Shown here piece by piece: positions 16,158 through 60,541 of a stretch of DNA of 64,000 bases. The notes under the pieces are model-generated. The model did no database searches and was not told the DNA's origin. It was given only the letters and a program-made list of their open reading frames with translations. Numbering within the stretch: position 1 is the stretch's first letter; the number at the start of each line of letters is the position of its first letter. The stretch spans positions 1-64,000 of the forward strand of contig MU006018.1 of assembly GCA_010093745.1 (NCBI GenBank), given 5' to 3'. Origin of the DNA: Piedraia hortae CBS 480.64. Taxonomy: Eukaryota. Both the position numbers and the translations under genes were made by a program.

Positions 16158-16332
16158 GTCATCATCCCGCCATGATGGGCAGAACACCAAACAGCCGTTA
16201 GTAACAGATCCACTAAGGTGCGGCCCGATAAGCGTCCGATTGCACTAGGCCCGGGCCGTCTTCACCCGCCCCGTTTGGACGAACTGCTCAGCTTCAGTCC
16301 ATGTAAACAGCTAATAGGTAGACGGGTAGACC

Positions 16333-34186: not shown

Positions 34187-36137
34187 ATGTCTGTAAAAAG
34201 CCCCGTAATGTCTTCAGTCGCATCTTCGGATCCAGCGCTACGTCCCAGTTTTTGTCAAATGCCAATACAACCCTCCCCTGTCGGCTCCAGCGGAACCGAA
34301 GGCACCGAAATCGAAGAGGAGGCGCAGGATACCCAGAACGATGCCAATGTTGCCAGTCCGCGAAGCCAGAGCAGTGTAGGGAGTCTATGTGAAGTTGATG
34401 CGAGTATTCTGACTTGACAAGGACCGCCCAAAGAAACTTAAGACTGCAATCATAGATCGCATCAAGGCCGACGACGAGCCGCAGTCTGTGATTCTCGCGC
34501 CCACCGGTTTCAAATCATTTCAAACTGGAAAACGAGCCGCGCAATCGCCGGCCACCGAGAGCTCGAGCGCAACTGTTGTTTCGCTCAATTTCCCCGAGAG
34601 TGTGTCTGGCGATACAGTGGGTACAGCCGACGATGCGTTGGAAGTTGCTGACCTTCACAGGATGCAAACAGAGATATAGATCGGTCAACTTCACGCACAC
34701 CTCAAGCAAAGCCTGTCATGGAGCGCAGACAAAGGAGAGCGTCTTCTTTGCAAAGTGCGTGCCTTCCCCATTTGGCAAGTCTTGCTGACTCGTGTAGACG
34801 TGCCCGAAGAAGCAGACAAAGCCAAAGAAGACAGCGAGGGCCTGACCAAGCCTTCGTTGGAAACTGCCCTTGGCGAGTGCTGGCAGATGTGCAACACGTT
34901 TGCGAGTTTGCCTTCCCCCCACCACTCGCGCTCATCCAACGGTCAGGCCTGGCAAAGCTGCTGGCGGCTTTGTCGGCAGCTCTACGACAAGCGCGATGAG
35001 GACCTTTCGTCACAGCTGATCCCAACACTGGAGCATTGCCGTGACTTCTGTAAGGACCTCTTTGCTGCGCGAGTTCGCGGCGATGAGGCGACAGATGCCG
35101 TGTTGCGAGTGAGTTTTGAACTCAACAACCATTTACTTAACACGGACGATTCCAGCTTGCCAGAAGCTTTTCACGAGCGCACACTTGATTTTTATATTTC
35201 GCTTTGCCATCGATTAATGAAGCAGCGATTGGATTCTACGCAGGATAATGACGCCCTGCTGCGTTCGTGCTGGGCTCTGACCGAGACCCTGTTCAGCCTC
35301 CGGCAGCACAAGAAAGAAGGCGGGTTGCCAGATGTGGAACTGTTGAACTCTGCACTGCAAGCATGCTTGAACTTATCAATCCTTTTCCACAATCAAAGAT
35401 ATCAAGTTCGACCTGAAAAAAGCATCCCAAAGGCATCATTCGAAGCAAGTTTCGGCTCGCAATATACATCCAGCAGCAATGCATCTTCTCGGGGCCGGAT
35501 TACGCGCGTCTTAGGTGCACCCGAGACCCCAACCACGATATTCACTGACACCACGCCTTCCACCGCCTCCTCTCCCGATTCCGCTTATGCAGCGCCCAAC
35601 ATCCTCGTCTTAGGACCCAGCACTCACTGGTCCACGAGCAGCAGTGCATTATCAACCTACTCATACGAATCAGCCTCTTCGCAGCGAAGCTCCTCTACCG
35701 CCCGCGGCGCGGCGGGCACAGGCGGAGAAAAGGCACATCTGCAACGACTACGCTACCTTCTGCTCAAAGCGGCCATCATAACAGGCTATTGTCCATCACA
35801 AAACTTTCCCCTACCCGCGTATGTTCAAAAATCACTATCTCCCAACGCCTTTGGCATGTTACCCTGGCAGATCAAAGCCCTGGAACAGTACAAGAGGCTC
35901 GTCCTCAGCGATCGCAGCCTGATGAACCTGCACTTGCTTCCACACAGAAGACTCTCGGCGAGGGAGGTTGCGGCAGCGGTGAGTTGGCTCATTGCAGGGG
36001 AGAGTGGTGGGGAGAAGAAGTGGGCGTGGATGAGGGATTTGTTTAGATCAGTCTTTGGAATGGGGGTTGATGAGGTGGATGAAGCGGAGAGTGGGAACGG
36101 GAACGGGAAAGGCGTGGATTGGATTGAAGTTGGTTGA
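34187..36137 (+). CDS. Conserved fungal hypothetical protein
   Basis: A four-exon model with introns 34376-34421, 34617-34660 and 34755-34797 gives one continuous frame, with helical segments ECWQMCNTFASL, AWQSCWRLC and VLRVSFELNNHL. Confidence 0.7.
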
Positions 36138-36309
36138 TGATTTATGATTTGATGATGGTGTTGTATACCCCAATTTATGATTCTCGTACAAATTATCTGA
36201 GTGAGAGCTTGGCAGGCGGCGGGGTGGCTGGTGAGGAGGAGGGTGGCGAGCTGACGTCAAGCATTAACGATCCAAACACCATACCGCACACACCGATACA
36301 GGATTCAAA

Positions 36310-36746
36310 ATGTCCAAGTCCCTAAACGGCAAATCTCTCCCCTTTGTACCCCAACACCCCAGCTAACGAAAAGCTATATCCCAGTCTTCGGCAAGCCCCT
36401 AGCCCTATTCTCTCGCGAGCCCATGACAGGCTTCATGCGCAACGGCTACTGCGAGACACCAGCCGCTGACTTTGGCAATCACTCCATCGCCGCCGAGGTA
36501 ACTGAAGAATTTCTTGACTTCACCGCCCGCCAGGGAAACGACCTCCGCGTTATCCCCGGCATGAAAGGCGGATGTAAATGGTGCCTTTGTGCGAGCAGGT
36601 GGCTTGAGGCTTTTAACGCGAGAACCACGGAGGCTCAAGGTGATAAGATTGTTCCCAAGGTCTTTCTGAACGCTACTGGTGAGAATGCGTTGAAGAGTGT
36701 CAAGTTGGAGGAGCTTACAAAGTTCGCTGCTGATGAAGGTTCGTAG
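36310..36746 (+). CDS. DUF2237 family protein
   Basis: MSKSLNVFGKPL...PMTGFMRNGYC...GNDL...KWCLCASRW. Needs a GC-AG intron at 36329-36384; otherwise the start is at 36423. Confidence 0.8.
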
Positions 36747-36818
36747 AAGGGAATTGTGCAACAAAAAACTCAAGTAAGACGTTCTATGAACACAACCTAA
36801 CCCACAGACTTTCAATTT

Positions 36819-39800
36819 TCACAAAACAGACTTCTTCATAAACGAAACCAACTTCTCCATGTGTTTTCCATTCTGAAGCATGGTGAAGTGGTTGACGTTC
36901 TCGATCGTGTCAACCTTCAACTTGTCCTTACCCAGCAGATCAAGCCAACCGGCACCAGAGAAATCGGTCCTGTTGTTGAGCAACCAAAGCATCTCCCTGG
37001 GATCATCAGGCCTAATCTCCGGCTTCGGATCATCGGGACCTTTGCAGATCCCATCCTTCGCATATAGCATATACGCATCCGGCACCTGATGGGAGGAGAA
37101 CTTGGAGACTTTATACGCATCGAGCATTTTGATGAACGCGTCAAAATGCGGACGCAGCCACGATGGGGGCGCCTTACCGTTCATGCCGAAAAAGTCGAGC
37201 TGTTCGAAGAAGTCGTACATTCGCTGAGGCGGGTTCTCCAGCCCGATAGGGTTTGGAGAATCGAGCAGAATCAGCTTTGTGACCTTTTCGCCGGCTTTTG
37301 TGAGTTGCTGCGCGGCTTCATATGCCACGATCCCACCGGCTGACCAGCCGCCGAAGATGTAGGGTCCCTTCGCCTGGCGGCGTTGGATCTCACTAATGAA
37401 TTTCGCGGCGTACTCGCTCATGGTGCATTTCAGCTCAGTTGGATTGCGCATCCATGGGCAGTTCAGCCCGTATACTGCCACATCGTCGGAGATTGTGGGG
37501 ATGAGTGCGTATGAGGTTGCAGAGCCGGATCCGTCGGGGAAGAGAAAGATTGTGTGCTTGCTGTTCTTGGCGGAGCCTTGAAGCAGGACGGACGTCGCAT
37601 GCGGGCCTTGTTCGACTTGTTGCTTGGGCTTTTCGGGGACGGTGGTGCTCCTCTGGATCACGTTGTTCGCGACGAGAGTCGTCTCGACATCGTTGATTGT
37701 GTCGTTGTCGGCGAACAAAGTCGATGGGAGCTGCACGTCCAGCTTTTCGTTCAGCGTGCTGATGACGTTCAGCGACATGAGGGAGTCCATTCCGATCTCG
37801 GACAATGAAGTTGATGGGGCCAGGTCGGTGGGTTCGACGCCCGTTTCTTCGGCAATGGTTGACTTGATCACCTCCATGGTGAAATCCCCTGAGGTGGACT
37901 CGGGAGTCGTCACTCCCGTGTTGACTGACGTGTCAGAGTCGGAGAGAGTGGTCATTGGAGTCGCTGATTCCGTCAATGATTCCGTCGAAGCAGGAGCTTC
38001 GCCCATCCGACCTTCAAGGTGCTTGGTAAGGTCTTGCATGGTTGGATGCTCAGAGAAGACGGCTGAGCCGAGATCCAGGCCAATCTCCTCTTTGATCCGG
38101 CTTGAGATGCTGAGGGAAAGCAGGGAGTCGATACCACAATCGGCGAATTCTGCAGTCGGGCCAAGATCTGCATCGTCGACTCCCGCTTCCTCGATGATGA
38201 TCTTTCGGACCTGAGTAACTGGTGAAGCCTCGGACTTAGCCACCTTTAGCTTCTGCTCTAGAGCTGCAGGCGGTGCGGTAGCTGCCTTGGTTGGAACAGT
38301 TGCCGCTGGCTCTGCCGGCGAATGAGTGGGCTGCTTCTTTGGAGCGAGCTTAGCAGCGGGCTGAGTGGGTGCAGACTTGGGATTGGAAGGTAGGAGGTTG
38401 TCCAAGACTTTACGTGGCACTCCTTGGAACTTTTTTCTTGATCAGCCAACCAAACATGGATTGAGCTTCCCGTTTCACTTACCCTGACACCCTCAAACAT
38501 GCCAACCACGTTGTTGCCATCCAGAATATAGGTATCACCCGCGTACATGGCTTTGTTGACCAGCTGCATCCTGTTGTACGTCGTGTACTCCTTGCCTGCT
38601 TCCAGCGGCTCGGCAAAGCGAACATGGTCCCAGCCATGGTTGATAAACACCTGATCCTTGGAATGGATGTTGTCGTTGCCGTTCATGATGAATCCAGCAA
38701 TGTGTCCTAAGCTATCGATCCAGCAAGGGTTGTAGACATAACCCTCATTAGGAACCTGGAAGACAACCCTGGACGTGGCCTCCAGCTTGTCGCTATCCAG
38801 GATAACTTCTTGCATGCCCTTGTATCGCTGCTCGTAGTCGACGAGTTTAGAGAAGAGCAAGTACGCCAGTCCGCTCTTGAGCTTATGAGCATTTCCACGG
38901 TCCACGGCCTCATGAAGCGACTCAATACGACTTTCGATGAGGTAGGCATGTCGCTTCCACTCCTGGACCCAGCGCTGGTTTGACGTCACAATCACCGTGG
39001 CAGTTGCGTGATCAACCTTGCGTTGTGTCTTGTTATTGTGACCGAAGAACTTGAGACGAACCTCGCCTCTGGCCCAGTCTGCGTTTGCAGACACACGTAG
39101 CAGTTGAGAAGTCTCGGCGTCGGAAAACACAAGAGGGTTTTCGGCCTTCATATCGCTGCAGTCAAGCCCAATGCTGTCGGTCCACATACCGCATTGTTTA
39201 ATCATGTACTGTGCCATCGTCAAGGCAATATCGGCGTACAAGGATGATGGGCAGAGACCTGCGGAGTTGACCTTGTGTCCGGCGACGATGGGCTTCAGCC
39301 TTGGATCATGGATATCGGACTCGATGAGCAGAGATGAAGATTTCGATCCGACATCTTCGTCGATGACCCTCTGCACTGAAGGTGAGATGAACTTGTAGGA
39401 TGGAGTTGGGACAGTTTTCGGAACTGCCTCTATGCGTCCCTTGTTTGGATCATCGCCCTTGGTAATACACCAATTGTGGACGTACTGCAACCAGTAGTTC
39501 TTCAAATCCCAGGCATAAGCGGGCAGTTGGAGAACCTGTTGCGCACCGTCGAGGCCTCGGTGGTATTCGTTCCAGGAGATCTCAATGCCGCCAGTGTACA
39601 AGGTCTCTAATGCGTTCGCCATGGTCTTCCACGTATCCTCTCCTTTCTTGAGCGTGGGAATAGCAGTCGCCTCTCCAATGGTGCCTTTGATCATTGCGCA
39701 GTTGGCTGGGTGGGCGCCAATCTCCAACCAGATGGCATTGTTCGCTACCGTTCCGGAGGCAATAGCGGCTTCGACAGCACCTTGGTAGTTGACTGGGGAC

Positions 39801-42800
39801 CGACATGCTTTGCTGACGTATGCCGGATCGATCATACCCGCCTCGGTGATGACTTTTCCCTTGAGGGAGGACAGGTATGGTATCGAAGGCTTTTTGAAAC
39901 GCACACCCTGTGCAGCTTCCTCAAACTTCTCCAATATTGGATCAACTTGAGACGAATGGAAGGCATAGGGGATGTCGAGGAGGACTGCCCGATGGCCTTG
40001 CGACTCATAAATGTCCTTCAAACGCAATATCTCCGACCTTGGACCGCTGATGACGTTGTTGGTGGGCTGGTTGAGACAAGCAACTTCGCAGCTGGTGTCC
40101 TTGAGTGATGGTGTGATGGCATCAACAGCTGCACGGACAGCCAGCATGGCATGTGTCGACTCTGTGCAGTTTTCAGAGAGGAGTTTGGCGCGGAATCCAA
40201 CGAGATAGATAGCAGCGTTCGAAGAGATAACGCCTGAGGCGAAGAGGGCCGCATATTCGCCCAGACTGTGTCCAATTGTTGCTGAAGGAGTGATGCCCCA
40301 AGATCGCCACAAGCATGAAAGTGCCATTTGGACGCACAGAGCTGCAAGATGTGAAGTAACAGTGCTGTTGGCCTCGCCCTCTGTTGTGTCGGTGACATAA
40401 GGAAGAACGCTTCCGAAGCCTTGTTGTTGGCAGAGGCGGTCATATTGCAGCAGGGTTTCCTTGAAGAACAGAGACTCTTCAAACAGCTGTTTACCCAGGC
40501 CAGGATACAAGGCGCCCTGCCCAGTGAAGGTGAAGACAACTTTAGGAACTTTGGGAGGTGGAGGGATGGTCTTGAGATCCTCCTTGGCCTTTTGATTCAG
40601 TTTGCCTTCCAGAGCTGCTGTGTCAGCAGCAGAGACCAGGATGCGGAACCTATGGTGCATTCGGCGGGCAGTGGTTGTGTAGGAAAGCATAGACAGCGAG
40701 GTGCTTGGATTCGCTTTCAGGTAAAGCTCCAGTGCTTTAATATTTCCCACAAGAGATTTTGCACTCTTAGCTGACAGCGTAATGACATGGGTTTTACGCG
40801 GGTCAGTGACTTCTGGAGCCTCAATGGCCGGACCGTCTTGAAGCAACAAAGCTGTGTTCCCACCAGCTGCGCTGAAGTTGTTCAGGAAACAAGTGCGCTT
40901 TCCAGATGGCCAATCTGAAGCCTTCCAAGGTGTTGGCTCCATGGCGATGTGGACGTTGCGCTCCTTGAGGTCCAATGGGTAGTTGTGATTGATCCGGGTT
41001 TTGATGCCACAATGAGGTGGGATCTCATTGTTTTTCATCATGAGAAGGACCTTGATCAAGGACAACACACCGGATGCAGATTCGGCATGCCCAACATTTG
41101 CCTTAACCGCTCCAAGGTACAAAGGCCGGCCAGGGTTCCGTTGCTTGCCGGGCACCAGAGCTGCTAAGACGGATCTCATCTCCGTAGCATCACCGTGCTG
41201 GGTACCTGTGCCATGCATCTCGACCAAGCCAACGTCCAATGGATCAACATTGGCCTGTCGCATAATGCTTCTGAACAGAGCGTACTGATCGCCATCATTG
41301 GGCCGGGTGATAGACTCAGTATGGCCAGAATGGTTGGTTGCAGCTCCAGCAATGATTCCAAAGATGGGGTCTTTGTCGGCTAGGGCATCTTCCAGACGCT
41401 TAAAGATGACAGAACCAACGCCATCTGACCTGCAGTATCCATTGGCTTCATCATCAAACGAGTTGCAATTGCCTGAATTACACGTCAGTATTGAAAATTG
41501 CTGTGTGTGGCATATGCTTACCAGTCGTTGAAAGGAAATGGCCTCTGTCAAGCCCAGCAAAGTTGTCCTTTTGACTGTAAGTAAAAGTCAAGAAATATGA
41601 TTCATTCATCTTACCGGATTGGTAAGAATGTTGACTCCACCGCCGATTGCGGTGTCGCATTCCCCTCTCCAAAGAGCGGCACATGCTGTGTGGATGGCGG
41701 CAAAGCTTGAGGAGCATGCCGTATCGACGCTGATGCTAGGCCCAGTAAAGCGGAAAAAGTAACTATTGCGTGTGTCAGTAGAGGAAGGGCAGTTTGCGTA
41801 GTCAGTTTCTTACCTGATTCTCCCGGGCACAAAGGCTCTGTTGCCTCCTGGGATGAAATACGTTCCAATATTCTGGGCACTGTTTATTTCACGCCAATCG
41901 TCGCTGGTCACTCCCATGTATACACCAACACGGTCATGCTGCGTTGAGGGTGTCCGATTTGGCACAAAGCCAGCCATTTCCATAGCTTCGTATGTCGCAA
42001 GCAACAGCAGTCTTTGAGCAGGATCAACTCTCTCAGCTTCAGCTGGAGAAATGTTGAAAAATCGTGCATCGAACAAGCCTTCAAAATCCATTAGTGAATC
42101 ATGAAACACATTAGCAAAAATCAAACTTACCAGGCTCCTCGATAAAGCACCCATGCTTGATTCGACTGGTGTTCTTGATCTTGCCTTCGGGGTCATAGTG
42201 CGCTTCCCAGTCAAATCGATTTTTGGGTATGGGACGGTGAACGTCACGTCCAGCACGCAAAAGTTCCCAAAACTGCTCGTTTGAAGCAGCATCCGGGAAA
42301 CGACCTGAGAATCCCACAATCGCGATCGGTGAGTTGGAAAAACCCGCACTTTTCTCAGTGGGTGCCTCGAGTCGATCATTCATGCCGCTCTCTACGTTGA
42401 TTGATGCTCCATCTAGCTTTCCCTTGATAAAGGAGGCAGAGCTAGAAGCCACGGGCATAATCGTAAAGGACTTCTGCTGCGTGGAGTCCGACTCGTCCTG
42501 GGGTCGGGAAACCGCTTTATGGAGAGTCTGCAGTACCTTGTCCCACCTGACGGGTTCGCACAGTGCATCCCAAGTTGCCCGGAGCAGAAGATCTCGAAAG
42601 CTTCCAGGCTTGATCCACTGGCCTGTTGCTGGAGAAATCGAGTACATGAAAGAGGGCAAGTCGCTGCCGTGATCACCAACGATGGCTTGTACATCTTCCA
42701 AAGTGTGTAAATGCGGTGCGTGATAAGGCGCTTCAATTTTGAGGTAGGAAGCTTTCAAAGACTCAGACTCGATAAATTCCTTGATTGTTACAGGTTGACC

Positions 42801-43650
42801 ACTTAGAGTGACAGTGTTGGGGCTGACGCAGGAGATATAGAGTCTGCTGGTGATGGGCAAGTTCTTTAGAAAGTCAGCGTGGTTCAAACTTTGCACAAGT
42901 TTGCATACCCTCGATGCGTTGTACTTGTCAAGTAGCTCAGATGCTTGGATCTCTGGCATGTGGACGATAGCCGCCCAAGATCGGGATTCTTCAGCTGCAG
43001 GTTGTTCAAAGTTTCGTTGAACTCTGACTGCGTGAATTCCAGTTCGAAACGCAACGAGGACAGTCTCAACAGCAACAGGTATCAGCTCCGTAATCGTACG
43101 AGCCGCCGATATTGCTGCACCTGCAAATGCACCGGCGCATATGCCAAAAACGCAAGTATCCTTAGCATTCGGGTACACATGACTGCCTTCACCAAAGTAT
43201 CTAACACAGTGATTAACAAACCATAAGAGTCGAAGATATTGTGAATACCCACTTTATCACTCTTCCAATCTGGTAGACGACCAATAACACAAGCCTCAAT
43301 GCCGGAGCACCAGTTAGGGAGTCAAACTTCTCCAACAGTTCTGGTATCGTGGTGAAGCTTGGAAACCATCCTTGTTCCACAGCCGAAAGTGTAGCAAATT
43401 CTTGTCTTAGTGCTAGTCCGACGCGATCCAGGAAGTTTTGAAAATTTGGATTTGCCTTGTGTTGGAGTAGACGACTCAAGTCAAACTCAAAAGCGGTATT
43501 GAGATCGCCAAACACGACAACATTGTTGATGTGTTGATTCAACGAATCCGAAGCGTGCAACTCAGACTGGCCAAGGTCGTGCATACTTTGGAGTGCCAAT
43601 GTGCGATTGTCTGGTGTCGGGTCTCCAGGGCTGATATAAGACATGACCAT
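36819..43650 (-). CDS. Non-reducing iterative type I polyketide synthase SAT-KS-MAT-PT-ACP-ACP-TE/CLC (Bik1-like)
   Basis: SAT GICAG, KS DTACSSSL and HGTGT, AT GHSLG, PT GHKVN, ACPs GIDSL and GMDSL, TE GWSAG...NHFTM. Seven introns: 43201-43252, 42864-42908, 42079-42130, 41763-41813, 41568-41614, 41473-41521, 38430-38482. Confidence 0.95.
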
Positions 43651-43903
43651 CTTTCAGCACATCCTTGTGAGACGGTACGGCTGAGATCCTTAGGCGAAGC
43701 TGAAGTTGAAATCCTTCTGATATAGTGGAGCTTTCATCCTTATGGGAGATAGTGGAGCTGTAGCCGAGTGGCTTGTGATCTCCCATAATTAGTTATGAAC
43801 CGGGAGCCTACAAGTGTGGCTACAACGTGTTACGCCCGGAGTTCAGCAGAAGGCAAATGCCCGCCTGTTAGTGGCACTCCGCCATGACGTTCGGGCAAAA
43901 CAG

Positions 43904-44340
43904 CATGAAACCTCCAAAGTCACAGATCCAATAGGCTGACGGCTGCCTCGACGCGCTTCGTCTAGCTTGATAGAACCGCATGGAACTCCAGGGGTTCCAA
44001 ATCCAACATCCTGATGGCTGCCTCAACTCGCTTCTTCCACTCGAATAAAACCGCATGGATTTCCCAACGTTCCAGATCCAACAGCCTTATGGCTGACAAC
44101 GGGCTTCTTCCACACAGATAAATCCTCATGGATCCCCAAAAGTTCCAGATCCATCAGGATGTTGGCTGACTTATCGCGCGTCTTGTAATCTGATAAATCT
44201 GCATGGATCACCAAAAGTTCCAGAGCCGTTAGGCTGATGGCTGATTACACGCGCTAGTTTTTGTCAGCTCAAAATGCATAGACCCCAAGAATTTCAGCTT
44301 CAACAGCCTGACGCCTAATTCAACGCGCTTTATTTCATGT
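43904..44340. repeat. Degenerate tandem array of about six 75-bp units
   Basis: Units begin CAT(G/A) at 43904, 43979, 44054, 44127, 44202 and 44277, and share approximately TTCCAGATCCA...TGGCTG...CGCGCT...ATAAA. Confidence 0.85.
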
Positions 44341-44471
44341 AGTCATCTCAAGAGCACCAGGGACATATAAAAACTCGCTATCAGGTTTCAATGAAGTACT
44401 ACAGCTCTGCCTCATCTTTGATGTTACGAAATTTGACCTTATTGTTTCATCCTAGTGCAGTCCATCTGTGA

Positions 44472-45955
44472 TTAAATCTGTGCAGCAATGCTCGCTGGTG
44501 CTTCTGAGACTTGAATTGTACCATTTTGCAGCTCGTTCGCTTCAGTCATTGTCTGATAAGTGTCATGGCCTTTCATCGGTCGGAAGCCGTCTTTAAAGAC
44601 GGGGCTTTCGCGCACTTTATCCCAATCATGCAGCATTTTTCCGTTTTCAACCGAACACTTAACCTCTTCGCTACCACGTGGCACAAGGTCCGCCTCGTAT
44701 TTGCTGATCGCTTGTTCGAGACTACTTTTGTAATTGCAAACCTCATCGAAAGCTGCAAGCAACTCAGAAGTATCGCAAACACAGTGGTTTAAGCCTTGGC
44801 CCCTATATGGAGGCATCGGATGAGCAGCATCGCCCAGCAATGTGAGCCGGCCACCATGGTTTTCCCATGGCTGCGTGATCCAATAGCTGATGTCCGCCCT
44901 GTGTACAAGAGTGTCCTCAGGGATCCAGAGAAAGGCTGAGCGTGCCGGTTCAGCCAGCGATTGTGATTTCTCCTTGATTAGTGCAAGCCTCTCGGCATAG
45001 CTTAGACTATGGTCTGGGTTGCCGTTCCAAGCCATCGCAAGATGGAAGATCCAGCTTTCAGGATGCTCTGGGCCTTCAGGCATACTAGATACTAATAACA
45101 TGTTAGTAATGATGAACCGAACTGGGCTGGGACACTCACTCGACTGAAATGCGTGGAAAGACCGATTGCTCAGTGCAAGGTAGCTCGTGGGGAACTCCCG
45201 GCGCAGATACCGAGCCTTTTCCGCATCTCGATAACATACCGTGAGGTTGTGATGCCATATTGGGAATCGGCTCACAGCCGCTTTCTCGGCCGAACCCATG
45301 GCAAATTCACGAACCTTGGAGCGCGGCCCATCAGCACCAACAATGAGACTGCCCTTAACAAGTGTTCCGTCCTTGAAAGTGGCAATAACCCCCTCTCCAC
45401 TTTGATTGAAAGCGACATCAACAAGTTCTTTGCCATATTGCACTTTAATGCCTTCAGCGCACAGCAATCGCATCTTGCTCCTTGGCACGCGGAGGCCCTT
45501 CTGGTATGGAACACCAGCAAGTAAGTTGCCGGTTTCTCCGTCTATAAGATTTAGTGCTCATTCGTCTGATAATTTGCCAATACTTACGAATGATGGGGTA
45601 ATTCCCTACTACAAGTTAGCAAATTCTCCTCTATAGTGAATAGGACACTCACCACCGGCCTCAATCGAGATAGATGGGTTACATGACGCTTTTGTCATGT
45701 CCTGGTACACTTCGGGGGGTAGGATCTTTTCCAGTCTATCAAGTGACCAGTGAAGAGCCATTGTCCACTCATTGCTCCTTACGTTCAAGTCGGTGTCCCT
45801 CTCAAAGATAGTGTACTTGATACCAGCCTGATGATAGCATAAGCACCTCTTATTGGGGCTCAAAATAAGGAGAATGATACCTTTTTGAGACCTTGCGCAA
45901 GGACTAGACCAGAGATGCCTGCACCGACAATGAGGACATGGAATTGGACATCCAT
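44472..45955 (-). CDS. FAD-dependent monooxygenase (Bik2-like)
   Basis: VLIVGAGISGL, IVGADGPRS and LLGDAAHPMPPYRGQGLN. Introns 45828-45880, 45606-45652, 45542-45587 and 45092-45139, with an 18-nt micro-exon at 45588-45605. Confidence 0.92.
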
Positions 45956-47189
45956 CTTGGGCGTCAAGTCTGCCATTGCTTTCTGCAAAGAAGCTTCGAA
46001 TTTGGTTTAAGCCGAGATTTTGAGGCGAGCTTATCAAGATATGCACGCCAGCGCCTCTCCTTTGATGACCGTTCAAAGGATGCCCGAAAGGTGCTCCCAA
46101 AAAAAGGCACGGATCCGTCGTCCTCTGACGATATTCAATGGACCCATTTGTTATATAGTTAGCGTCCGCCACTCCTTACTCGGTTAATGACACTCAATAT
46201 CAAGTAGTCCGGTCACACTCCAATACGGGATGGTTCTTAGACTTTGTATCATTAGATAACCAGATGGGCGATAGGTCGGAAGTCCAATCCTATCCGACTC
46301 TGTACACAGAGAAGTAAGCCAATGTGGCAGCCGTGAGGTGTACGGCCGGTGGCTAAGGCTAGATAGGTGTGAATCCTCACTTCGGTTCCTTTTGGTGGTG
46401 CTTTTGTTCGCGTTGACTGAATGGAGGAATTCATTCAACGAGTAACGTGGAACCGAAAACTCCCTGATTTAACCTTGTATGAGATTGGTGATTGGAAGAG
46501 GCGATATTGATTGCGTGATATGCAGCAGCGTAGCATGGCTTGAGCTTTTGTGGGCAGCGTTCTAGGCGGTTGTAAACTTGCCACAGGACACCTTTTATCT
46601 CGCGACTGTTGAGAAGAGAGTAGTGTTCACCGGCCACACGACGAGATGATTGAGCATGCGATAGCTATGCATAGGTAGTCGGCTACAGGCACTTACCCTT
46701 GCTTCGTCTCAACCAACACCATACCTCGAGAGTGGCCGAGCGAAGATCAAGGTAGCCTGCTCGTGACGTTCAAAAAGAGCCGATGTGTCATTCGAGTCTA
46801 ATAGAGTGCGGCGCATTAACGTGGCGCCTCTATGCAGCCAGCCGATAATGGAGCGTATGCAAGTAGATCTCGCTTCTACCCATTCACACTCCCTAGTTGT
46901 TATCGTTACTGCGTCCGAAAGTTCGTATCTTCCATGATAGGGACTAAATGTTGACATCCTACGTGGGAGTAGCTTCGGATCCTTGCGGATGACACTGTTG
47001 CAGATCCTCCGCCACTAAAAACAACCTCTTGGTGGAATGCGCCACGCTCGTGTTGCTCCGTGAAGCACGATATACCATGCTTTTAGTTATGTTTGCTCAG
47101 TTTGGTGTCCAAACGCAGTGTAACAGGTCCAGACCTCACACCATTGACCCAACTGGCTCTTCTACCGACATCTGTTCACGTCAAAGACA

Positions 47190-48626
47190 ATGCCAGACAG
47201 TTGTCTTCTTTCAGTAGCAGTGGATATCCTGGGTCAAAGTTATGCCATTGTACAGCAAATGCAACTGCAGTCAATGCGAGCCCCTTCGTTGGAACAGGGT
47301 TCGAGCAGCGAACTCTGGACATCATCATCTGGTGAGATTGGAAAACTGCGAACAAGCCTTCTTGGTCTCGTAGAGGACATGTCATTGCTGCTGATGGGCC
47401 CACATGATTATCAGCATGAGTATGTTTCAGTAAATTGGGATCATGGCGCTTTGTATGCTGCCTTGCGCTCAAAAATTATTGATTCAGTTGCTCAGAGTCC
47501 TGGCGGCAAGACCGTTGCGACGATATGCGGTGAAACAAACGTTCCTCAGGACAAGCTTTTGAGAATTCTACGATTGCTTTGCTGCAAGCATATTGTCAAG
47601 GAGGTCGAAGATGAAACTTTTGCTCCAACGGCGGTTTGTGAAGATCTTGTTAAAGATGACAACTTCAGATCATGGGTTGAATTCCAGTCTGTCATCTTAC
47701 ATCACGATTTGAAAGGTATTGCTGACTTATCTGTAGATTGTTCGAGACTAGAGTGGCGAGCGCCCATCTTGCTGACGCACTTTTGACTTTGCCGAATGAT
47801 TACAGTGATGGAAAGCCTGGATTTGACGTTGCGTACGGGTCCAGCATATATGAGTGGCATGAGAAACACCCAGAACACGGAATAAGGTTTTCGAAAGCTA
47901 TGCGTGGGGTATCGGCGTGTAAGATACAACTCAAAGAAGACCGTGGGACGCTTTCTGACAAGCACTTTACTAGCTCTCGATCCCGCAAATGACCTTTTCG
48001 ACAAGTGGTTTGCTTCTCATTCCAATAGCAAGCCCTTAAATGTCGAGATTGGGGGTCGATACGGATACGCTTCGAGCTATCTTGCGAGCAAGCATCCCGA
48101 GCTACGATTCGAAGTTCGCGCAACCTCTCGTCAACTGCTTGACAGAGCGCGAGACGGCCTAGAAGCCGATTGCAAGCAACGGGTGACCTTTAAGCATTCC
48201 GATGACGATCTGAGCCCTCAACCGGGTGAGGATGTCCAAAATGTAGCAACATACCTCGTGAGAAATGTTTTGTGGAATTGGTCAGACGACCATGCCGTGA
48301 AGCTCTTGCAAACATTCTTACCGATACTGGAAAACTCGCCCGAAACAGTCATACTCATATCTGACGGCATTTCACCTGCCATGAATGAGTTTCCCCGGCA
48401 GCAGGAGTTGGCGTACAGGCGTCGAGACATAACGACAATGACGATGCACAATGTAAAGCAAAGGACACAAAATGAGTGGCTTCAGCTGTTCAGAAGAGCG
48501 AGTCCACACCTGAAGGTAAAAATCGATACTTCAAATGCGTTTACTGATCTTTTGAAGGTTACCACCAAAACAGCTTCTTCATCACACGTTTTCAAGGGCC
48601 TATGGGAGCTTACATGGGAAGGTTGA
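47190..48626 (+). CDS. O-methyltransferase (Bik3-like)
   Basis: Dimerisation region LRILRLL, WVEFQLFETRVASAHLADAL, VEIGGRYG, RNVLWNWSDD and DITTMTMHNVKQRT. Introns 47687-47736, 47919-47973 and 48516-48557. Confidence 0.88.
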
Positions 48627-49206
48627 TCATGTAACTATTATGTTACTTGGCAACAGCTTCGTGATTTATGTGCATTTTTGCGTTTAAGTCTCGTCACGAT
48701 GCTCAAGAAGAGAAGGAAGAAGTAGAGAGTCCTCTTCGGTGAACCTTTGAACGCCGTCACCGTGAGATCGGGATGCAGAAAGTGCCCAGAGCTCTCTCGC
48801 CTCTCCCTCCTTCTAGGTCACCGCATCGGCCCAGAATCATTACACATACTCCAGCCAACGATGAGATATACCCATATCTCTGCGAATTGAACTTGGCAGA
48901 GTGAGACTAACGCGTTACAGTGGTGGAAGAACCACAAGTGCCCAAGTTGTCAAACGAAGTCCTGGCTATTCAGGCATCGTCGGCGCTGTGCGGGAGGCAG
49001 CCTGATGACAACACAACGTGCAGAGTGATCGGGGAGTCTGGGAAAGCTTCCATGCGTCTATAGGGCAGGACTGCTACGTACCTAGAATCGATTTGTGGCG
49101 GTCCCTGAAACTCGGCCGAATGCCTGAAAACCCGGATTCGGAGTGGGGCAGTGACGTTAGCATTTACCTTCGCTCTCCTGTTCGTTTGAACTGTCAATCT
49201 CGAACC

Positions 49207-50242
49207 ATGTCGTCGTCGAACCAAATTAAGAATGTAGCCGTCATTGGGGTAAGCAAATAATCAGCTTAGGTTACAAGCTCGTTCGGGTATTGACAGCACG
49301 TGGGCCGGCGGCAATAGCGGAACATATATGACAAAGGAGTTGCTCAAAACCGGCAAACATACCGTCACAGCTATTACCCGTGCGGGCTCCGACTCAAAAC
49401 TACCAGAAGGCATCCATCGAGTGGCCAAAGTCGATTATGCCAACCCGTCATCTCTGCTCGAGGCGCTGACGGGCCAAGATGCTCTGGTTATTACTCTGGG
49501 CACGTTTGTCCCTCCTGAAACCGACAAAAACATCATTGAGGCCGCTGTCAAGGCCAAGGTTCGCTTCATCCTGCCTAACGAGTGGGCCCCCGATACAGCC
49601 AATGAAGGCTTGAGAAAAGATGTGGGAGCTTTTGCCGGCAAGGAACCCATCCGCAAGAAGATCGAGGCTGAGGGCAAAGGCGTAACAAGCTACATTGCTG
49701 TAAGCACTGGCTTCTGGTTTGAATGGTCTCTGGCAATTCCAGCAGCTTTCGGGTTCGATTTTGATAAGAAAGCTGTTACCATGTTCGATGATGGCGAAAC
49801 TAAAATCAACACGTCGACCTGGCCGCAAGTTGGACGTGCGGTAGCCAAGCTATTGAGTTTGCCCATCCAGGCAGATGGTGATCCAAAAGCCTGCTTGGAC
49901 CATTACAAGAATAAGCAAGTCTATGTGTCTTCGTTCAACATTAGCCAGAAAGACATGCTCGCAGCCGCCATGCGCGTTACAAACACCAAAAAGGAAGACT
50001 GGAAAGTGTCGTATGAAAGCTCAAAGGAGCGATATGAGAATGGCGTAAATGCAATGAAGGAGGGCGACAATATGGGTTTCGTGCGGATGATGTACACCCG
50101 TGTCTTCTACAAGGACGACAGTGGCAACTTTGAAAAGACCAAAGGCACAATCAACAGTGTGCTTGGTTTGCCACAAGAGAACCTCGACGAAGCCACTGCA
50201 GAAGCAATCAAACGCTCGCAGGAGACCCAGTGGACTGGTTAG
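49207..50242 (+). CDS. NmrA / isoflavone-reductase-like (CipA-type) oxidoreductase
   Basis: IKNVAVIG|AGGNSG Rossmann motif split by intron 49249-49303 (acceptor reads GG), plus ILPNEW, FDDGETKINTSTWPQVGRAVA and MMYTRVFY. Confidence 0.8.
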
Positions 50243-50704
50243 AATGTGAAATTGTCTTTTGCCCTGCAAGTAACAATCTCATTGATAGACGCTTGCAGTA
50301 CGAAGCATACGAATTTTACCGTGATGCCCTCATGCAGAATGTTAATTTACTTGATTGAAGTTGTGTTTGACGTGTGAAGTTGAGTGTGGTTGAGTCACAG
50401 GTGTCAGGGATGCGGATGCATTCCGCGCAGTGGGGTACAAAAGGTGCCGGTCCCTTGTGCCCTCCACCTTAACACAACCTGGTGCAAGACTGCGCCAACC
50501 CAAAGAACTACAAAACCCTGTCGCACGGAGCTTCAAGACAATTGCAAGTCTTGGCCGTGTGTTTAGCCAACGATCCCGCAACTTCCGAGCCCGCGCCTTG
50601 TCTTCCGAGTCGATCCCGTCGGCGCAAGACAAGACACGGCCGCGGGGCTTCTGGCCTGTCCGCGCCATTACGCGCTCTGGCCTGACACCAGCCATATCGG
50701 CAAT

Positions 50705-52032
50705 ATGAGCAGAATGCTGGTGGTATGCCTGGCGACACTTGGCTGAGGCTGGTTCCGGCTAACGATGGTGATGGTGTAGGGAGATGTGTACGCCAAGATC
50801 ATCGAAGCTGTCGTTGAGGGATCCAAAAGCGATTTTGAGGAGCATGGCATTCGCTCGTCGACGCTGGAGGATCTGCAAAAGGTACATATGCAGTCGCCGA
50901 ACAGTCGGGCGGCTACTCCCGTTCCAAGTACACTGCTAACCGTTCATAGGGCTGGCAAATCCGGCTGACGCAGCGCGGAGTGGCCCACATGCCCTGGGAC
51001 CCAAAGCCTGCACCGGTTCCCGTACAGCAGACGCCGCTACCTCTGTCCACTACCCATGGCATGCCCAGCTATGGCTACCCGCCGCAGCAGGGAGGTGTGC
51101 GTGTAAAGGGCGAGCCGGGCTCTGAGCATGGCTACCTGTCCAATGGCTATGCTGCCGACTCGTCCGTGCTTCAGGGCAACGAATACCGTGCCCGTCAGCT
51201 GATGCAGGACTACGGTCAAACTGCCGTCAACGCTCAGCGTGCTGGCCTTGCTCTGCCTGGACAACGGCCGCAAGCTGTGCATCAAGCGGGTCAACAGACG
51301 CAACATGCTCACCATCCCCATTCACAGACTGCGCATCAGCTCCATGTGACTCAGCAGACATTGTATGCCCAGCAGCGGCGCCAGATGATGATGCAGCAGC
51401 AGCAAGCTGCTGCACAGACGCATCAGGCCCCGAGCCAGGCCCAGGCCCAATCTCAGTCTCGTGTTAAGGTGGAGCACCAAGTGCAGCCGCGCATCAAGCT
51501 GGAGAATGGCAGCTCGGCCTACGGGCAGACGGACGGCGCGCACGAGGGCCTTGACGAGTGGCGTAATTTAGTGGCCCAGCGTCGTGCCGCCCACGCAGCT
51601 AATGGTGAGCAGGCTGATGGCGCGATTCGCGACATGATCATGCAGTCTCGCTCAGACATGGAAAGTGGTCTGATGCTGCCGTTGGCTGGGGCTTCGCGCT
51701 GTCGCCTTTCACTGCGTGGCGCAGTACCCCAGATCAACGGTACCACCTTCATATCGCAGCTCGATGGCGTCCCGGAAGATGAACAAAAGGCTACTGCCGG
51801 AGTCAAAGTCTCGGATGATGAGGACTCCAGTGCCATCAATTCGGACCTTGACGATGAAGCTCTGGACCGTGTAAACGAGGATGAAGATGACATGTGCGAC
51901 ACGATTCTCTGCACTTATGACAAGGTGCAGCGTGTCAAAAACAAGTGGAAGTGCACGTTGAAGGACGGCGTTATGAACGTCGACAACCGCGAGTACGTAT
52001 TCCACAAGGCCACTGGCGAATTCGAATGGTAA
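50705..52032 (+). CDS. TOA1: Transcription factor IIA alpha/beta subunit
   Basis: VYAKIIEAV...DFEE N-terminus, a Q-rich linker, QLDG, INSDLDD and CTYDKVQRVKNKWKC...GEFEW. Introns 50723-50779 and 50882-50949. Confidence 0.95.
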
Positions 52033-58818: not shown

Positions 58819-60167
58819 ATGAGGATGCACACTTTCGCGTTTTCTGCAGCATATCTCTTGCTCATACCCTCGTCGCTTGCTCTGCCCCATGTTTACAGAC
58901 ACCTCGAAAAGCACAGAAACATCCAAAGGCAGGCAACTCCGGCCATCTCAGGAACCCCATCAGCTTCCGCAGTTTCAACCTTTGACTACGAATATGTCAA
59001 TGGCCTGGAGCATGAATTCTATCGATTGTCGCCGAAAATTTCCGCTCTTTCTACGTCCCTAGCCGGTTCTTTGCAGCATACGTCTACCACAAGCTTGCCA
59101 CAAACCACATTAATAGTTACTCCTACAACTTCCAGCTTGATCAATGCCTTCCCCTCGACTATGGGCCCCATTGCTCCGGGAGCAGCCACTAGTACCCCCA
59201 CAAGTACCTCCGCCAATGGAGAGCAGCCGACAGGAAGCTACACCTTCAATGCCAGTTCCAATCAGAACCTTGATGTCTATTACGATGCATCTTCAGCTAC
59301 TAAATCAGATGGCTTGCTGACCTTGTGTGAGAATCCAAACGTTGGCATTGTCGTGCTTGCCTTTCTCAATCAGTTCGTTGCTGAGATGGGGTACCCAAGG
59401 CTCGAACTTGGCAATGCTTGCAACGCGCCAAACGCTGCTCAGAGAGTACAAGCACCGGGGCTCAGGGGCTGTATGTAGTTCCGTTGCCGCACAGATACAA
59501 AATTGCCAGGCCATGGGGAAGAATGCACTGCTCAGCCTTGGAGGTTACAATGTTCATACATCGTGGATTCTCAGGCATAGAAATTCGCCGACACGCTCTG
59601 GCGCCCCTTCGGCCCTTCTGGCAATGACGAACTGACAGCAATTCGACCATTCGAATCAATCTCACTGGATGGCTTCGACTTGAACAATGAAAGCAAAGAC
59701 ACGACAGGATACGTGACTCTTGCTACCAGGCTTCGCTCGCTTTTCGACCGAGACTCGAACAAGACGTACTGCCTCTCATGTGCACCACAATTCCCCATTC
59801 CCGACTTATCAATTCCGCTGCAGGTGTTGAAATTGTCAGACTTTGTTTGGGTGCAATTTTACGATAACCCCATGTGCAATCTCGGCACATCAAGCTTTGT
59901 TAGCCAGGCCAGTGCACGGTCGAATCTTTCGAGAAATAATTCCGATCTTGGTCGACCTAAACTGTAGATTTAGGCTGAAGTGGTCAACGCTGGCAGTGGC
60001 TACATCTCTGATTCTGAGTTGCTGAGCAATTTGACAGAAGCACAGTCGCGTCTTCCTAACTATGCGCTTGGGGGGGTGTCATGTTATGGGATGGCGGCGA
60101 GGCGCTGGCTAACGTTGATGAGAAGGGAATGAATTACTTGCAGTTTGCTAGGCAAGCGGTTTCATAA
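58819..60167 (+). pseudogene. GH18 class III chitinase pseudogene
   Basis: Signal peptide and S/T-rich region, then VVLAFL, LLSLGG, IRPF..LDGFDLNNE, LSCAPQ, VWVQFYDN and MLWDG, interrupted by frameshifts (near 59470, 59570 and 60080) and in-frame TAG stops (59578, about 59965-59973). Confidence 0.85.
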
Positions 60168-60541
60168 GTAGGCTACACCCTTTGAATGGAAAGCCACCAA
60201 CCACTCAGACTTTGCTACAAATTCTCATTCCCAATGGCACGGTTGATTGTTGCGAAAAGGCCACATTGATTACCCCACGTCGTCCTAGCTGTCATGCCAT
60301 AACGGATCTAGAAAAGTGTCATACCCAAAACCTCGATTGCGTGATCCGAGCGGCCCGATCCTCAACCGTCTTCCACACTTTAATTTTGACGGCAGTTGTG
60401 CACAAGCAGATTGCGTTACACAACATCCTCGATCTTTTTAGGTATACCGCACAAAGGTGCAGGAGTGACGTCACTGAAGTTTTTTTTCTTCGTAGTACAA
60501 ATACACCCACATACACATTCACGAAAGTCAATATACTCACA

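What the first reader, a model, noticed from the sequence alone, without database searches (positions are those of the whole stretch)
36819..50242. Bikaverin-like (bik1-bik2-bik3) polyketide cluster among housekeeping genes, without its own regulator or pump
Seen in sequence: an intact NR-PKS, an FAD monooxygenase, an O-methyltransferase and an NmrA/CipA-like reductase, bounded by DUF2237 (72-bp gap) and TOA1. Established: the Fusarium bikaverin cluster is PKS (bik1), FMO (bik2), OMT (bik3), NmrA-like (bik4), Zn2Cys6 TF (bik5) and MFS (bik6), and has moved horizontally into Botrytis. From memory, motifs here (TE '[13 protein letters not shown]', FMO 'GGNYPIIHGETGNLLAGVPY', OMT 'WVEFQLFETRVASAHLAD') look like Bik1-3. 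Inference: a reduced, possibly horizontally acquired pigment cluster in a compact genome that does not look like Fusarium, with no bik5/bik6 equivalents adjacent.
Basis: partly seen in the sequence, partly recalled or inferred. Interest (0 to 1): 0.8.

Follow-up and report, generated by a model that had tools for sequence, protein, structure and literature searches.

The report
Phenalenone-type pigment cluster, not bikaverin
The four clustered genes are real, intact and transcribed in the hair fungus Piedraia hortae, but they match the known phenalenone pigment pathway (PhnA/PhnB/PhnC type) rather than bikaverin, so this is an ordinary new member of a known kind of cluster.

Summary
The window is Piedraia hortae CBS 480.64: the exons are identical to its annotated proteins. 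An intact NR-PKS (SAT-KS-AT-PT-ACP-ACP-TE), an FAD monooxygenase, an O-methyltransferase and an NmrA/CipA-like reductase lie between DUF2237 (72-bp gap) and TFIIA/TOA1. No regulator or pump is adjacent.

The bikaverin reading does not hold. The monooxygenase is 67% identical to PhnB and 68% to DuxE. The methyltransferase is 43% identical to PhnC and shares its unusual motifs. The PKS sits in a strongly supported clade with PhnA, DuxI, PKSN/PKS35 and Preu4. No bikaverin-named protein appears among the listed hits, but I could not obtain Bik1-3 for a direct alignment.

The best reading is a minimal phenalenone-type cluster: heptaketide prephenalenone, then a phenalenone core, then methylation and reduction.

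Recent transfer from Fusarium is not supported. The FMO, OMT and reductase have their nearest or near-nearest relatives in Teratosphaeriaceae, where PKS, FMO and OMT are also clustered. The PKS, however, is a long basal branch, and sisterhood with those relatives is rejected (AU p=0.013).

Transcript contigs show all four genes spliced.

Verdict: new member of a known kind, low to moderate interest.

The parts
36819..43644 (-). Non-reducing polyketide synthase gene (2158 aa; SAT-KS-AT-PT-ACP-ACP-TE/CLC). It has 8 exons: 43644-43252, 43199-42909, 42863-42129, 42076-41816, 41764-41615, 41567-41520, 41470-38483 and 38429-36822. The stop codon is at 36819-36821.
   Evidence: Pfam domains. 100% identity to P0002, 'putative polyketide synthase [Piedraia hortae CBS 480.64]'. 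Exact exon map. All 7 introns are skipped in transcript contigs with CT..AC ends. Catalytic motifs are present. The PKS falls in the clade with PhnA, DuxI, PKSN and Preu4.
44472..45976 (-). PhnB-type FAD-dependent monooxygenase gene (436 aa as annotated). Its introns include a 17-nt micro-exon between 45541 and 45652.
   Evidence: FAD_binding_3. Matches P0122, 'putative monooxygenase [Piedraia hortae]'. 67.2% identical to PhnB and 68.5% to the T. stipitatus FMO taken as DuxE. GxGxxG, GADGPRS and GDAAHPMPPYRGQG motifs are shared with PhnB.
45977..47189 (.). Divergent intergenic region between the FMO and OMT genes. It is the likely shared promoter (inference).
   Evidence: Gene ends. A transcript contig starts at 46933, upstream of the OMT ATG. 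No promoter test was run.
47190..48626 (+). PhnC-type O-methyltransferase gene with 3 introns: 47687/8-47736/7, 47918/9-47973/5 and about 48511-48552 (edges ±1-2 nt; differ slightly). The annotated start is 47274, but the ATG at 47190 aligns with residue 1 of PhnC.
   Evidence: Pfam Dimerisation and Methyltransf_2. Matches P0242, 'putative O-methyltransferase [Piedraia hortae]'. 42.6% identical to PhnC. Shares PhnC's unusual VEIxGxxG and VLWNxSD motifs. N-terminal alignment. GT..AG joints.
49207..50242 (+). NmrA/CipA-like NAD(P)-dependent reductase gene. Exon 1 is 49207-49248, the intron runs to about 49301, and exon 2 runs to the stop at 50240-50242. A poly(A) end is seen near 50324.
   Evidence: NmrA and NAD_binding_10. 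Exon 1 was read. The intron joint and poly(A) loose end are. The best relatives are Friedmanniomyces endolithicus (58%) and T. stipitatus TSTA_083290 (54%). The T. stipitatus gene lies between the dux FMO and PKS genes by accession order.
36255..36746 (+). DUF2237 gene: the left boundary, convergent with the PKS (72-bp gap). Not part of the pathway.
   Evidence: Pfam DUF2237, E 7e-40. Its intron 36328-36383 is skipped in the transcript contig.
50950..52032 (+). TFIIA large subunit (TOA1) main exon: the right boundary. Not part of the pathway.
   Evidence: Pfam TFIIA, E 1e-70. Upstream introns are skipped at 50722-50778 and 50880-50947.

Best explanation
This is a minimal phenalenone-type polyketide cluster of Piedraia hortae. 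It belongs to the same kind as the phn (herqueinone), dux (duclauxin) and PKS35/PKSN (red perithecial pigment) clusters.

Inferred mechanism, by homology:
1. The NR-PKS builds a heptaketide from acetyl-CoA and six malonyl-CoA. It cyclises the chain (PT C4-C9 aldol, TE/CLC C1-C10 Claisen) to the naphtho-gamma-pyrone prephenalenone.
2. The PhnB-type flavin monooxygenase hydroxylates prephenalenone and triggers closure to the tricyclic phenalenone core.
3. The PhnC-type O-methyltransferase methylates a phenol.
4. The CipA/NmrA-like reductase reduces a carbonyl, as the reductases of the dux cluster do.

Shown here: the genes, their intactness, their catalytic motifs, their homology and clustering, and that they are transcribed and spliced.
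Taken from the literature: the PhnA/PhnB chemistry.
Inferred: that the P. hortae enzymes do the same, which steps the OMT and reductase perform, and that regulation and export depend on genes elsewhere.
For: FMO. It is 67.2% identical to Swiss-Prot PhnB and 68.5% to the T. stipitatus FMO EED21094/AWS21677, which I take to be DuxE. It lies inside the PhnB/DuxE family, well apart from the 38-47% outgroup.

OMT. Only 5 hits were found. One is the cluster holding Swiss-Prot PhnC, and two are genes next to PhnA-type PKSs (Polytolypa AJ80_09606, Caloplaca sp. 3). It is 42.6% identical to PhnC over the full length and shares PhnC's non-canonical motifs.

PKS architecture. SAT-KS-AT-PT-ACP-ACP-TE is as reported for PhnA (passages of PMC8727740).

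PKS tree. In trees of 117 and 48 rows the PKS lies in a 100%-supported clade with PhnA, DuxI, PKSN and Preu4, apart from the Alb1/wA-labelled PKSs.

PKS-FMO pairing. By my reading, at least 27 of the 100 PKS rows in that clade share a contig with a listed PhnB-type FMO. None of the 17 rows outside the clade does.

Preu4. It lies in the same 26-row subclade and gave yellow C14H12O6 and C14H10O5 products in yeast (passages of PMC9116485).

Reductase. Its homologue TSTA_083290 lies between the dux FMO and PKS genes by accession order.

Expression. Transcript contigs skip every intron of the four genes that the call listed, and one ends in poly(A).
Against: No chemistry exists for P. hortae.

The PKS is only 46.5% identical to PhnA. 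That is about the same as its identity to the Alb1-labelled PKSs (45.5-47.6%), so the PKS assignment rests on the tree and on its partner genes.

The PKS is a long branch (0.64-0.81) at the base of its subclade, so its product could differ.

The reductase is not on the PKS contig in Friedmanniomyces endolithicus LTS02, and P. hortae has a 50%-identical paralogue elsewhere. Its role in the pathway is therefore uncertain.

Not all members of the large PKS clade are known to make phenalenones.

The primary paper on PhnA/PhnB was not held. Its chemistry is taken from passages of a review and of PMC6568001.
Confidence: 0.8

Rival explanations
1. A reduced bikaverin (bik1-bik2-bik3-bik4) cluster, possibly acquired horizontally from a Fusarium-like donor.
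For: The gene content has the same classes as bik1-bik4: PKS, FAD monooxygenase, OMT and an NmrA-like protein (cluster definition in passages of PMC3538735). From recall, Bik1 and wA-type PKSs belong to the same broad PT group.
Against: None of the 120 listed PKS hits, 120 listed FMO hits or 5 OMT hits carries a bikaverin name. The named ones are PhnA/B/C, with DuxI, PKSN and Preu4 on the PKS side. The PKS has two ACPs. There is no bik5 or bik6 equivalent nearby. The Fusarium relatives that do appear are PKS35-cluster genes, and they sit in a different subclade. The nearest PKS anywhere is only 58-59% identical, so there is no recent donor. Introns are short in cluster and flanking genes alike (42-68 nt), and GC is 0.48-0.53 against 0.50-0.56 in the flanks.
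Confidence: 0.03
2. A YWA1/naphthopyrone or melanin-type (wA/Alb1) PKS whose neighbours merely tailor a naphthopyrone. This would fit the black colour of the fungus.
For: The domain architecture is the same. The PKS is 45.5-47.6% identical to the Alb1-labelled PKSs, similar to its identity to PhnA. The Preu4 products have the same formula as YWA1 (formula match from recall; masses).
Against: The PKS is separated from all Alb1/wA-labelled outgroup rows by branches with 100% support. The adjacent FMO is a 67% relative of PhnB, whose reported role is to form the phenalenone ring. No scytalone dehydratase, THN reductase or Ayg1-type gene was found among the window's ORFs of 140 aa or more. The list of melanin partner genes is from recall.
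Confidence: 0.07
3. A cluster of phenalenone-type ancestry that reached the Piedraia lineage by ancient horizontal transfer from outside the Dothideomycetes.
For: The highest PKS identities are to Eurotiomycetes and lichen fungi: Thermoascus 58.7%, and Rasamsonia, Peltula and Lecanora 57-58%. Teratosphaeriaceae reach only 48.5-51.8%. Holding the PKS together with the Teratosphaeriaceae PKSs is rejected (AU p=0.0127). The site-mixture model gives the same basal position.
Against: The trees nevertheless place the PKS with 100% support at the base of a clade made mostly of Dothideomycetes, not with Thermoascus or Rasamsonia. The FMO groups with the Recurvomyces FMO (SH-aLRT 82) inside a 99%-supported, mostly Dothideomycete clade. 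The best reductase relative and one of the best OMT relatives are from Friedmanniomyces. PKS and FMO are 2 accessions apart in Recurvomyces, and PKS and OMT are 6 locus tags apart in F. endolithicus. The AU group was named only after the tree had been seen, and the P. hortae branch is long.
Confidence: 0.12

Closest known systems
phn (herqueinone/phenalenone) cluster of Penicillium herquei: PhnA, PhnB, PhnC
   Same: [quoted passage not shown] The FMO is 67.2% identical to PhnB. The OMT is 42.6% identical to PhnC and shares its unusual motifs. The three genes are clustered.
   Different: The PKS is only 46.5% identical and lies in another subclade. The window shows no prenyltransferase, second FMO or other phn genes (the phn cluster is described as seven genes, phnA-phnG, in a figure legend of PMC6568001). 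A CipA/NmrA-like reductase is present here instead.
dux (duclauxin) cluster of Talaromyces stipitatus: DuxI, DuxE and NAD(P)H-dependent reductases
   Same: The PKS is 51.0% identical to the T. stipitatus PKS and the FMO 68.5% identical to its FMO. The reductase is 53.8% identical to TSTA_083290, which lies between those two genes.
   Different: None of the P450s, the cupin oxygenase, the hydrolase or the transcription factor listed for dux (passages of PMC8727740) is present here. Which Dux letter TSTA_083290 carries was not established.
PKS35/PKSN red perithecial pigment cluster of the Fusarium solani species complex
   Same: The PKS is 50.1% identical to a member of the cluster holding AAS48892. 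The FMO is 72.3% identical to the F. floridanum homologue. That cluster was itself reported as phn-like, and its PKS is needed for fruiting-body pigment.
   Different: It belongs to a different subclade in both trees. The Fusarium cluster has about ten co-regulated genes, including a transcription factor (passages of PMC6568001).
Preu4 of Preussia isomera
   Same: It lies in the same 26-row PKS subclade and is 51.0% identical. In yeast it gave C14 yellow products.
   Different: The product structures were not solved. I did not examine the neighbouring genes of Preu4 here.
Bikaverin cluster bik1-bik6 of Fusarium and Botrytis
   Same: The classes of the first four genes are the same: NR-PKS, FAD monooxygenase, OMT and an NmrA-like protein.
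   Different: No bikaverin-named protein appears among the listed hits. There is no Zn2Cys6 factor or MFS pump in the cluster. The nearest relatives belong to the phenalenone family. No direct sequence comparison could be made.

Membership tests
Phenalenone-type cluster (phn / dux / PKS35) | [quoted passage not shown] | tested here: met
   Pfam finds all the domains, with two PP-binding stretches. The motifs are shared with PhnA, DuxI and PKSN. The architecture of PhnA is taken from passages of PMC8727740.
Phenalenone-type cluster (phn / dux / PKS35) | The PKS belongs to the clade of PhnA, DuxI and PKSN rather than to the wA/Alb1 clades | tested here: met
   100-row clade with 100% support in the 117-row FastTree. 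43-row clade with 100% SH-aLRT in the 48-row IQ-TREE. P. hortae is a long basal branch of a 26-row subclade.
Phenalenone-type cluster (phn / dux / PKS35) | A PhnB-type FAD monooxygenase encoded beside the PKS | tested here: met
   It lies 831 bp from the PKS start codon. It is 67.2% identical to PhnB and falls inside the PhnB/DuxE family in the 70-row tree.
Phenalenone-type cluster (phn / dux / PKS35) | A PhnC-type O-methyltransferase (accessory, not universal) | tested here: met
   42.6% identity, end-to-end alignment and shared unusual motifs. The cluster of P0246 holds PHNC_PENHR.
Phenalenone-type cluster (phn / dux / PKS35) | The PKS makes heptaketide prephenalenone (C4-C9 and C1-C10 cyclisation) and the FMO converts it to phenalenone | not testable with these tools
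   This needs expression and LC-MS/NMR. The only indirect support is that Preu4, in the same subclade, gives C14 products.
Bikaverin cluster (bik1-bik6) | The PKS, FMO and OMT are orthologues of Bik1, Bik2 and Bik3 | tested here: not met
   The named forward hits are PhnA/B/C and DuxI. None of the 245 listed hits carries a bikaverin name. No Bik sequence could be obtained, so there is no reciprocal or direct test.
Bikaverin cluster (bik1-bik6) | A Zn2Cys6 factor (bik5) and an MFS transporter (bik6) in the cluster | tested here: not met
   Neither lies between DUF2237 and TFIIA. The nearest MFS is at 60152-61972 and the nearest Zn2Cys6 at 3684-5408. The cluster definition is from PMC3538735.
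Bikaverin cluster (bik1-bik6) | An NmrA-like regulator (bik4) | tested here: inconclusive
   An NmrA-family protein is present, and exon 1 joined to exon 2 gives a GxGxxG-type motif. Its nearest relatives are CipA-labelled oxidoreductases and a gene inside the dux cluster. Bik4 was not available for comparison.
wA/Alb1 (YWA1, DHN-melanin) PKS | The PKS groups with wA/Alb1-type PKSs, and melanin partner genes are nearby | tested here: not met
   The Alb1/wA-labelled rows used as outgroup are separated by fully supported branches. No melanin partner domains were found in the window. The labels are automatic names, and the list of partner genes is from recall.

The most novel reading that the evidence does not exclude
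The P. hortae cluster could be a separate, old lineage of the phenalenone family: the PKS is basal to the whole Dothideomycete-rich subclade. It would then have been stripped to four genes with no regulator and no pump, yet kept and transcribed in the smallest known Dothideomycete genome. Its product would be a methylated, reduced phenalenone that serves the hair niche. It might colour or protect the ascostromatal nodules, as PKS35 colours Fusarium perithecia, or it might suppress competing microbes.
Probability: 0.2. Interest if true: 0.45.

Novelty: new member of a known kind. Interest (0 to 1): 0.27.

Why it matters
It corrects a family assignment from bikaverin to phenalenone. It also gives a compact, four-gene, transcribed version of a phenalenone pathway in a fungus with only 7,572 predicted genes (PMC7082219). 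Such a small cluster would be a convenient minimal set for reconstituting phenalenone biosynthesis, and it is a candidate for a pigment or antimicrobial of black piedra nodules. It opens no new kind of biology. The pathway type, its spread across Pezizomycotina and its PKS-FMO pairing are already described.

Tried and rejected
- Whole genome: not held. Other PKSs, a melanin PKS or a trans-acting regulator in P. hortae could therefore not be sought.
- Primary PhnA/PhnB paper (PMC4988900): not held. I used passages of PMC8727740 and PMC6568001 instead.
- Earlier findings of this scan: none.
- OMT search: because of the length limits I searched with exon 1 and 'longer' proteins. It returned only 5 hits, so no OMT tree was built.
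- Protein atlas on the OMT: it gave only generic methyltransferase names.
- Teloschistales idea: I considered that the lichen relatives were the Teloschistales anthraquinone PKSs. I rejected this because those are TE-less group V enzymes with an MBL-type thioesterase (passages of PMC9907504).
- AU test on 48 rows: it did not finish in two runs. I repeated it with 24 of those rows.
- Tree script: one did not start and was resent.
- Representative search: one collecting call came too early.
- Sequencing runs: no RNA holder is listed on record. The one holder is labelled 'RNA?' by guess. I treat it as RNA only because its contigs skip introns and carry a poly(A) end. Contig depths were not used to rank expression.
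- Bik1-3 sequences: no tool could supply them, so no direct comparison was made.
- Literature on P. hortae: two searches, 'Piedraia hortae' + 'polyketide' (7 papers) and 'Piedraia' + 'biosynthetic gene cluster' (4 papers), listed no paper whose title or abstract concerns this cluster. I read only passages of PMC7082219 and PMC11445062.
Full report
**Source and observation.** The main PKS exon (38468-41470, minus strand) is 100% identical to 'putative polyketide synthase [Piedraia hortae CBS 480.64]' (P0002, 2158 aa). The FMO and OMT exons match the P. hortae proteins P0122 and P0242. Pfam confirms SAT, KS, AT, PT, two ACPs and TE on the minus strand between 36819 and 43653. It also confirms an FAD monooxygenase (44472-45976, minus), an O-methyltransferase (47148-48626, plus) and an NmrA-family protein (49253-50242, plus). 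These are flanked by DUF2237 (36255-36746) and TFIIA/TOA1 (50950-52032).

The 72-bp gap between the DUF2237 stop and the PKS stop is real. P0002 maps exactly onto eight exons, and all the catalytic motifs I checked are present. The rest of the window holds housekeeping genes: OST48/WBP1, GST, an FAD/NAD-binding reductase, DUF7624, PPP4R2, CTLH/SPRY, Ies4, DnaJ and RAD50. The nearest MFS gene is at 60152-61972 and the nearest Zn2Cys6 factor at 3684-5408.

**What the genes are.**

*FMO.* It has 60-72% relatives in many Pezizomycotina. One of them, P0147, is the representative of the 90% cluster that holds Swiss-Prot PHNB_PENHR. Full-length identity is 67.2% to PhnB and 68.5% to the Talaromyces stipitatus FMO EED21094/AWS21677. 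The literature names the FMO partner of DuxI as DuxE, so I take this protein to be DuxE.

*OMT.* The search was limited to exon 1 and gave 5 hits:
- the P. hortae protein itself;
- Polytolypa AJ80_09606, which lies between FMO AJ80_09605 and PKS AJ80_09608;
- a Friedmanniomyces simplex OMT;
- Caloplaca sp. 3 Q9219_007057, two tags from PKS Q9219_007055;
- the P. herquei OMT, whose cluster holds PHNC_PENHR.

The P. hortae OMT is 42.6% identical to PhnC. It shares PhnC's departures from the canonical motifs (VEIxGxxG and VLWNxSD).

*PKS.* The best 120 hits include PhnA (P0093), the T. stipitatus PKS with accession AWS21681 (taken as DuxI), Preu4, and the cluster holding AAS48892. PMC6568001 lists AAS48892 as the F. 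solani f. sp. pisi match of PKS35/PKSN. No hit in any list carries a bikaverin name.

**Trees.**

*PKS, 117 rows.* I used 117 of the 120 listed proteins and dropped three unnamed Logan proteins. FastTree gave a clade of 100 rows with 100% support. It contains PhnA, DuxI, PKSN, Preu4 and P. hortae, and it is apart from the 17 rows that include the Alb1/PksP/wA-labelled proteins.

*PKS, 48 rows.* IQ-TREE (LG+G4) gave the same picture.

*PKS-FMO pairing.* By my reading of the contig lengths and locus tags, at least 27 of the 100 ingroup PKSs share a contig with a listed PhnB-type FMO. None of the 17 outgroup PKSs does.

*FMO, 70 rows.* I used 70 of the 120 listed hits. I dropped the unnamed hits and all fragments except one from Recurvomyces. 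Of the nine 38-47% hits intended as outgroup, eight formed the outgroup; the ninth (a second Paraphoma protein) fell inside the ingroup beside Paraphoma. The tree places P. hortae with the Recurvomyces fragment (SH-aLRT 82). That pair sits inside a 14-row clade (99) made mostly of Dothideomycetes, plus Teloschistaceae and one Leotiomycete. PhnB and DuxE lie in sister subclades.

**Reductase.** HMMER against 1.84 billion representatives gave 1995 hits. Three of the ten I looked up are informative:
- Friedmanniomyces endolithicus, 58% identical.
- T. stipitatus EED21097/TSTA_083290, 54% identical. By accession order it lies between the dux FMO (EED21094) and the PKS (EED21099).
- A P. hortae paralogue on another contig, 50% identical.

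The review lists NAD(P)H-dependent reductases among the dux genes. I could not establish which letter this gene carries. In F. endolithicus strain LTS02 the reductase homologue is on a different contig from the PKS. Its membership of the pathway is therefore plausible but not secure.

**Mechanism.** According to passages of PMC8727740 and PMC6568001, both citing Gao et al. 2016, which I could not read:
- PhnA makes prephenalenone from acetyl-CoA and six malonyl-CoA. The PT domain performs the C4-C9 aldol and the TE/CLC domain the C1-C10 Claisen cyclisation.
- PhnB then forms the phenalenone ring.

Preu4 lies in the same 26-row subclade as the P. hortae PKS. In yeast it gave unstable yellow C14H12O6 and C14H10O5 compounds, and its cluster resembled the duclauxin cluster. 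I infer the same two steps here, followed by O-methylation and a reduction. The product structure, the order of tailoring steps, and the regulation and export are all inference.

**Expression.** The one public run that holds the stretch is labelled RNA only by guess. Its contigs, however, skip introns at canonical boundaries:
- all seven PKS introns (CT..AC on the plus strand);
- FMO introns, including a 17-nt micro-exon between 45541 and 45652;
- three OMT introns (GT..AG);
- the reductase intron;
- introns of DUF2237 and TFIIA.

One contig also ends in poly(A) at 50324, about 80 nt after the reductase stop. These are spliced transcripts, so the cluster was transcribed in that sample. Contig depths cannot rank expression, and I did not use them.

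**Origin.**

*Against recent transfer.*
- The nearest PKS is only 58-59% identical.
- The Fusarium relatives belong to the PKS35 subclade, which lies elsewhere in both trees.
- Introns are short in cluster and flanking genes alike (42-68 nt).
- GC falls only from about 0.52-0.56 in the flanks to 0.48-0.53 in the cluster.

*For long residence in the lineage.*
- The FMO groups with Recurvomyces.
- The best reductase relative is from Friedmanniomyces. One of the best OMT relatives is too: the top identity on exon 1, and level with PhnC and Polytolypa over the full length.
- In Recurvomyces mirabilis the PKS and FMO are two accessions apart (KAK5155233 and KAK5155235).
- In F. endolithicus LTS02 the PKS and OMT are six locus tags apart on one contig.
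- NCBI places Piedraia in Capnodiales and these genera in Mycosphaerellales, both in Dothideomycetidae.

*Against simple vertical descent.*
- The PKS is the first branch of its subclade rather than sister to the Teratosphaeriaceae PKSs.
- Forcing that sisterhood costs 52 log-likelihood units (AU p=0.0127, 24 rows). I named the group only after seeing the tree.
- The C20 mixture model gives the same topology.

The origin is therefore unresolved, but nothing points to Fusarium or to bikaverin.

**Comparison and verdict.** Passages of PMC3538735 define the bikaverin cluster as bik1-bik6: PKS, FMO, OMT, NmrA-like regulator, Zn2Cys6 factor and MFS pump. The present cluster shares only the gene classes of the first four. 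It meets the sequence-level criteria I could test for the phenalenone family, while its chemistry remains untested.

Neither of two searches of the held literature listed a paper whose title or abstract concerns this P. hortae cluster. The genes are annotated only generically.

This is a new member of a known kind. It is of modest interest as a minimal, transcribed four-gene version in the smallest Dothideomycete genome (16.95 Mb, 7,572 genes).

Noticed in passing
window 47190-47273: The annotated OMT (P0242) starts at 47274. The in-frame ATG at 47190 gives 28 more residues, and these align from residue 1 of PhnC. A transcript contig also begins upstream, at 46933. The annotated start is probably too far downstream.
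   Followed up: partly
window 45541-45652: The FMO transcript contig carries 17 letters between two joints, which indicates a 17-nt micro-exon. Residues 92-97 of the annotated protein could not be placed on the long exons.
   Followed up: partly
window 35500-46689: One 11.7-kb transcript contig runs across DUF7624, DUF2237, the PKS and the FMO, which lie on both strands. Convergent and neighbouring transcripts therefore overlap in this compact genome. The two stop codons at the DUF2237/PKS junction are only 72 bp apart.
   Followed up: no
window 15210-16244 (-) and 6807-11504 (+): There is a PAS plus GATA zinc-finger gene (white-collar-2-like) and a large hybrid histidine kinase with PAS, HisKA, HATPase and receiver domains. 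Both are possible light or signal sensors, about 20-30 kb from the cluster. I have no evidence that they regulate it.
   Followed up: no
window 60152-61972 (+) and 3684-5408 (-): These are the nearest MFS transporter and the nearest Zn2Cys6 transcription factor. Housekeeping genes separate both from the cluster, so I do not count them as cluster members.
   Followed up: no
P0312 (another contig of P. hortae): P. hortae encodes a second CipA/NmrA-like reductase, 50% identical to the clustered one. The clustered copy may therefore be a recruited paralogue.
   Followed up: no
(related proteins): The PhnA-type PKS and PhnB-type FMO pair is widespread in lichen-forming fungi: Teloschistaceae, Trypetheliales, Lecanora, Peltula and Pyrenula. 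It is distinct from the TE-less anthraquinone PKS described for Teloschistales. Its products in lichens appear to be uncharacterised.
   Followed up: partly
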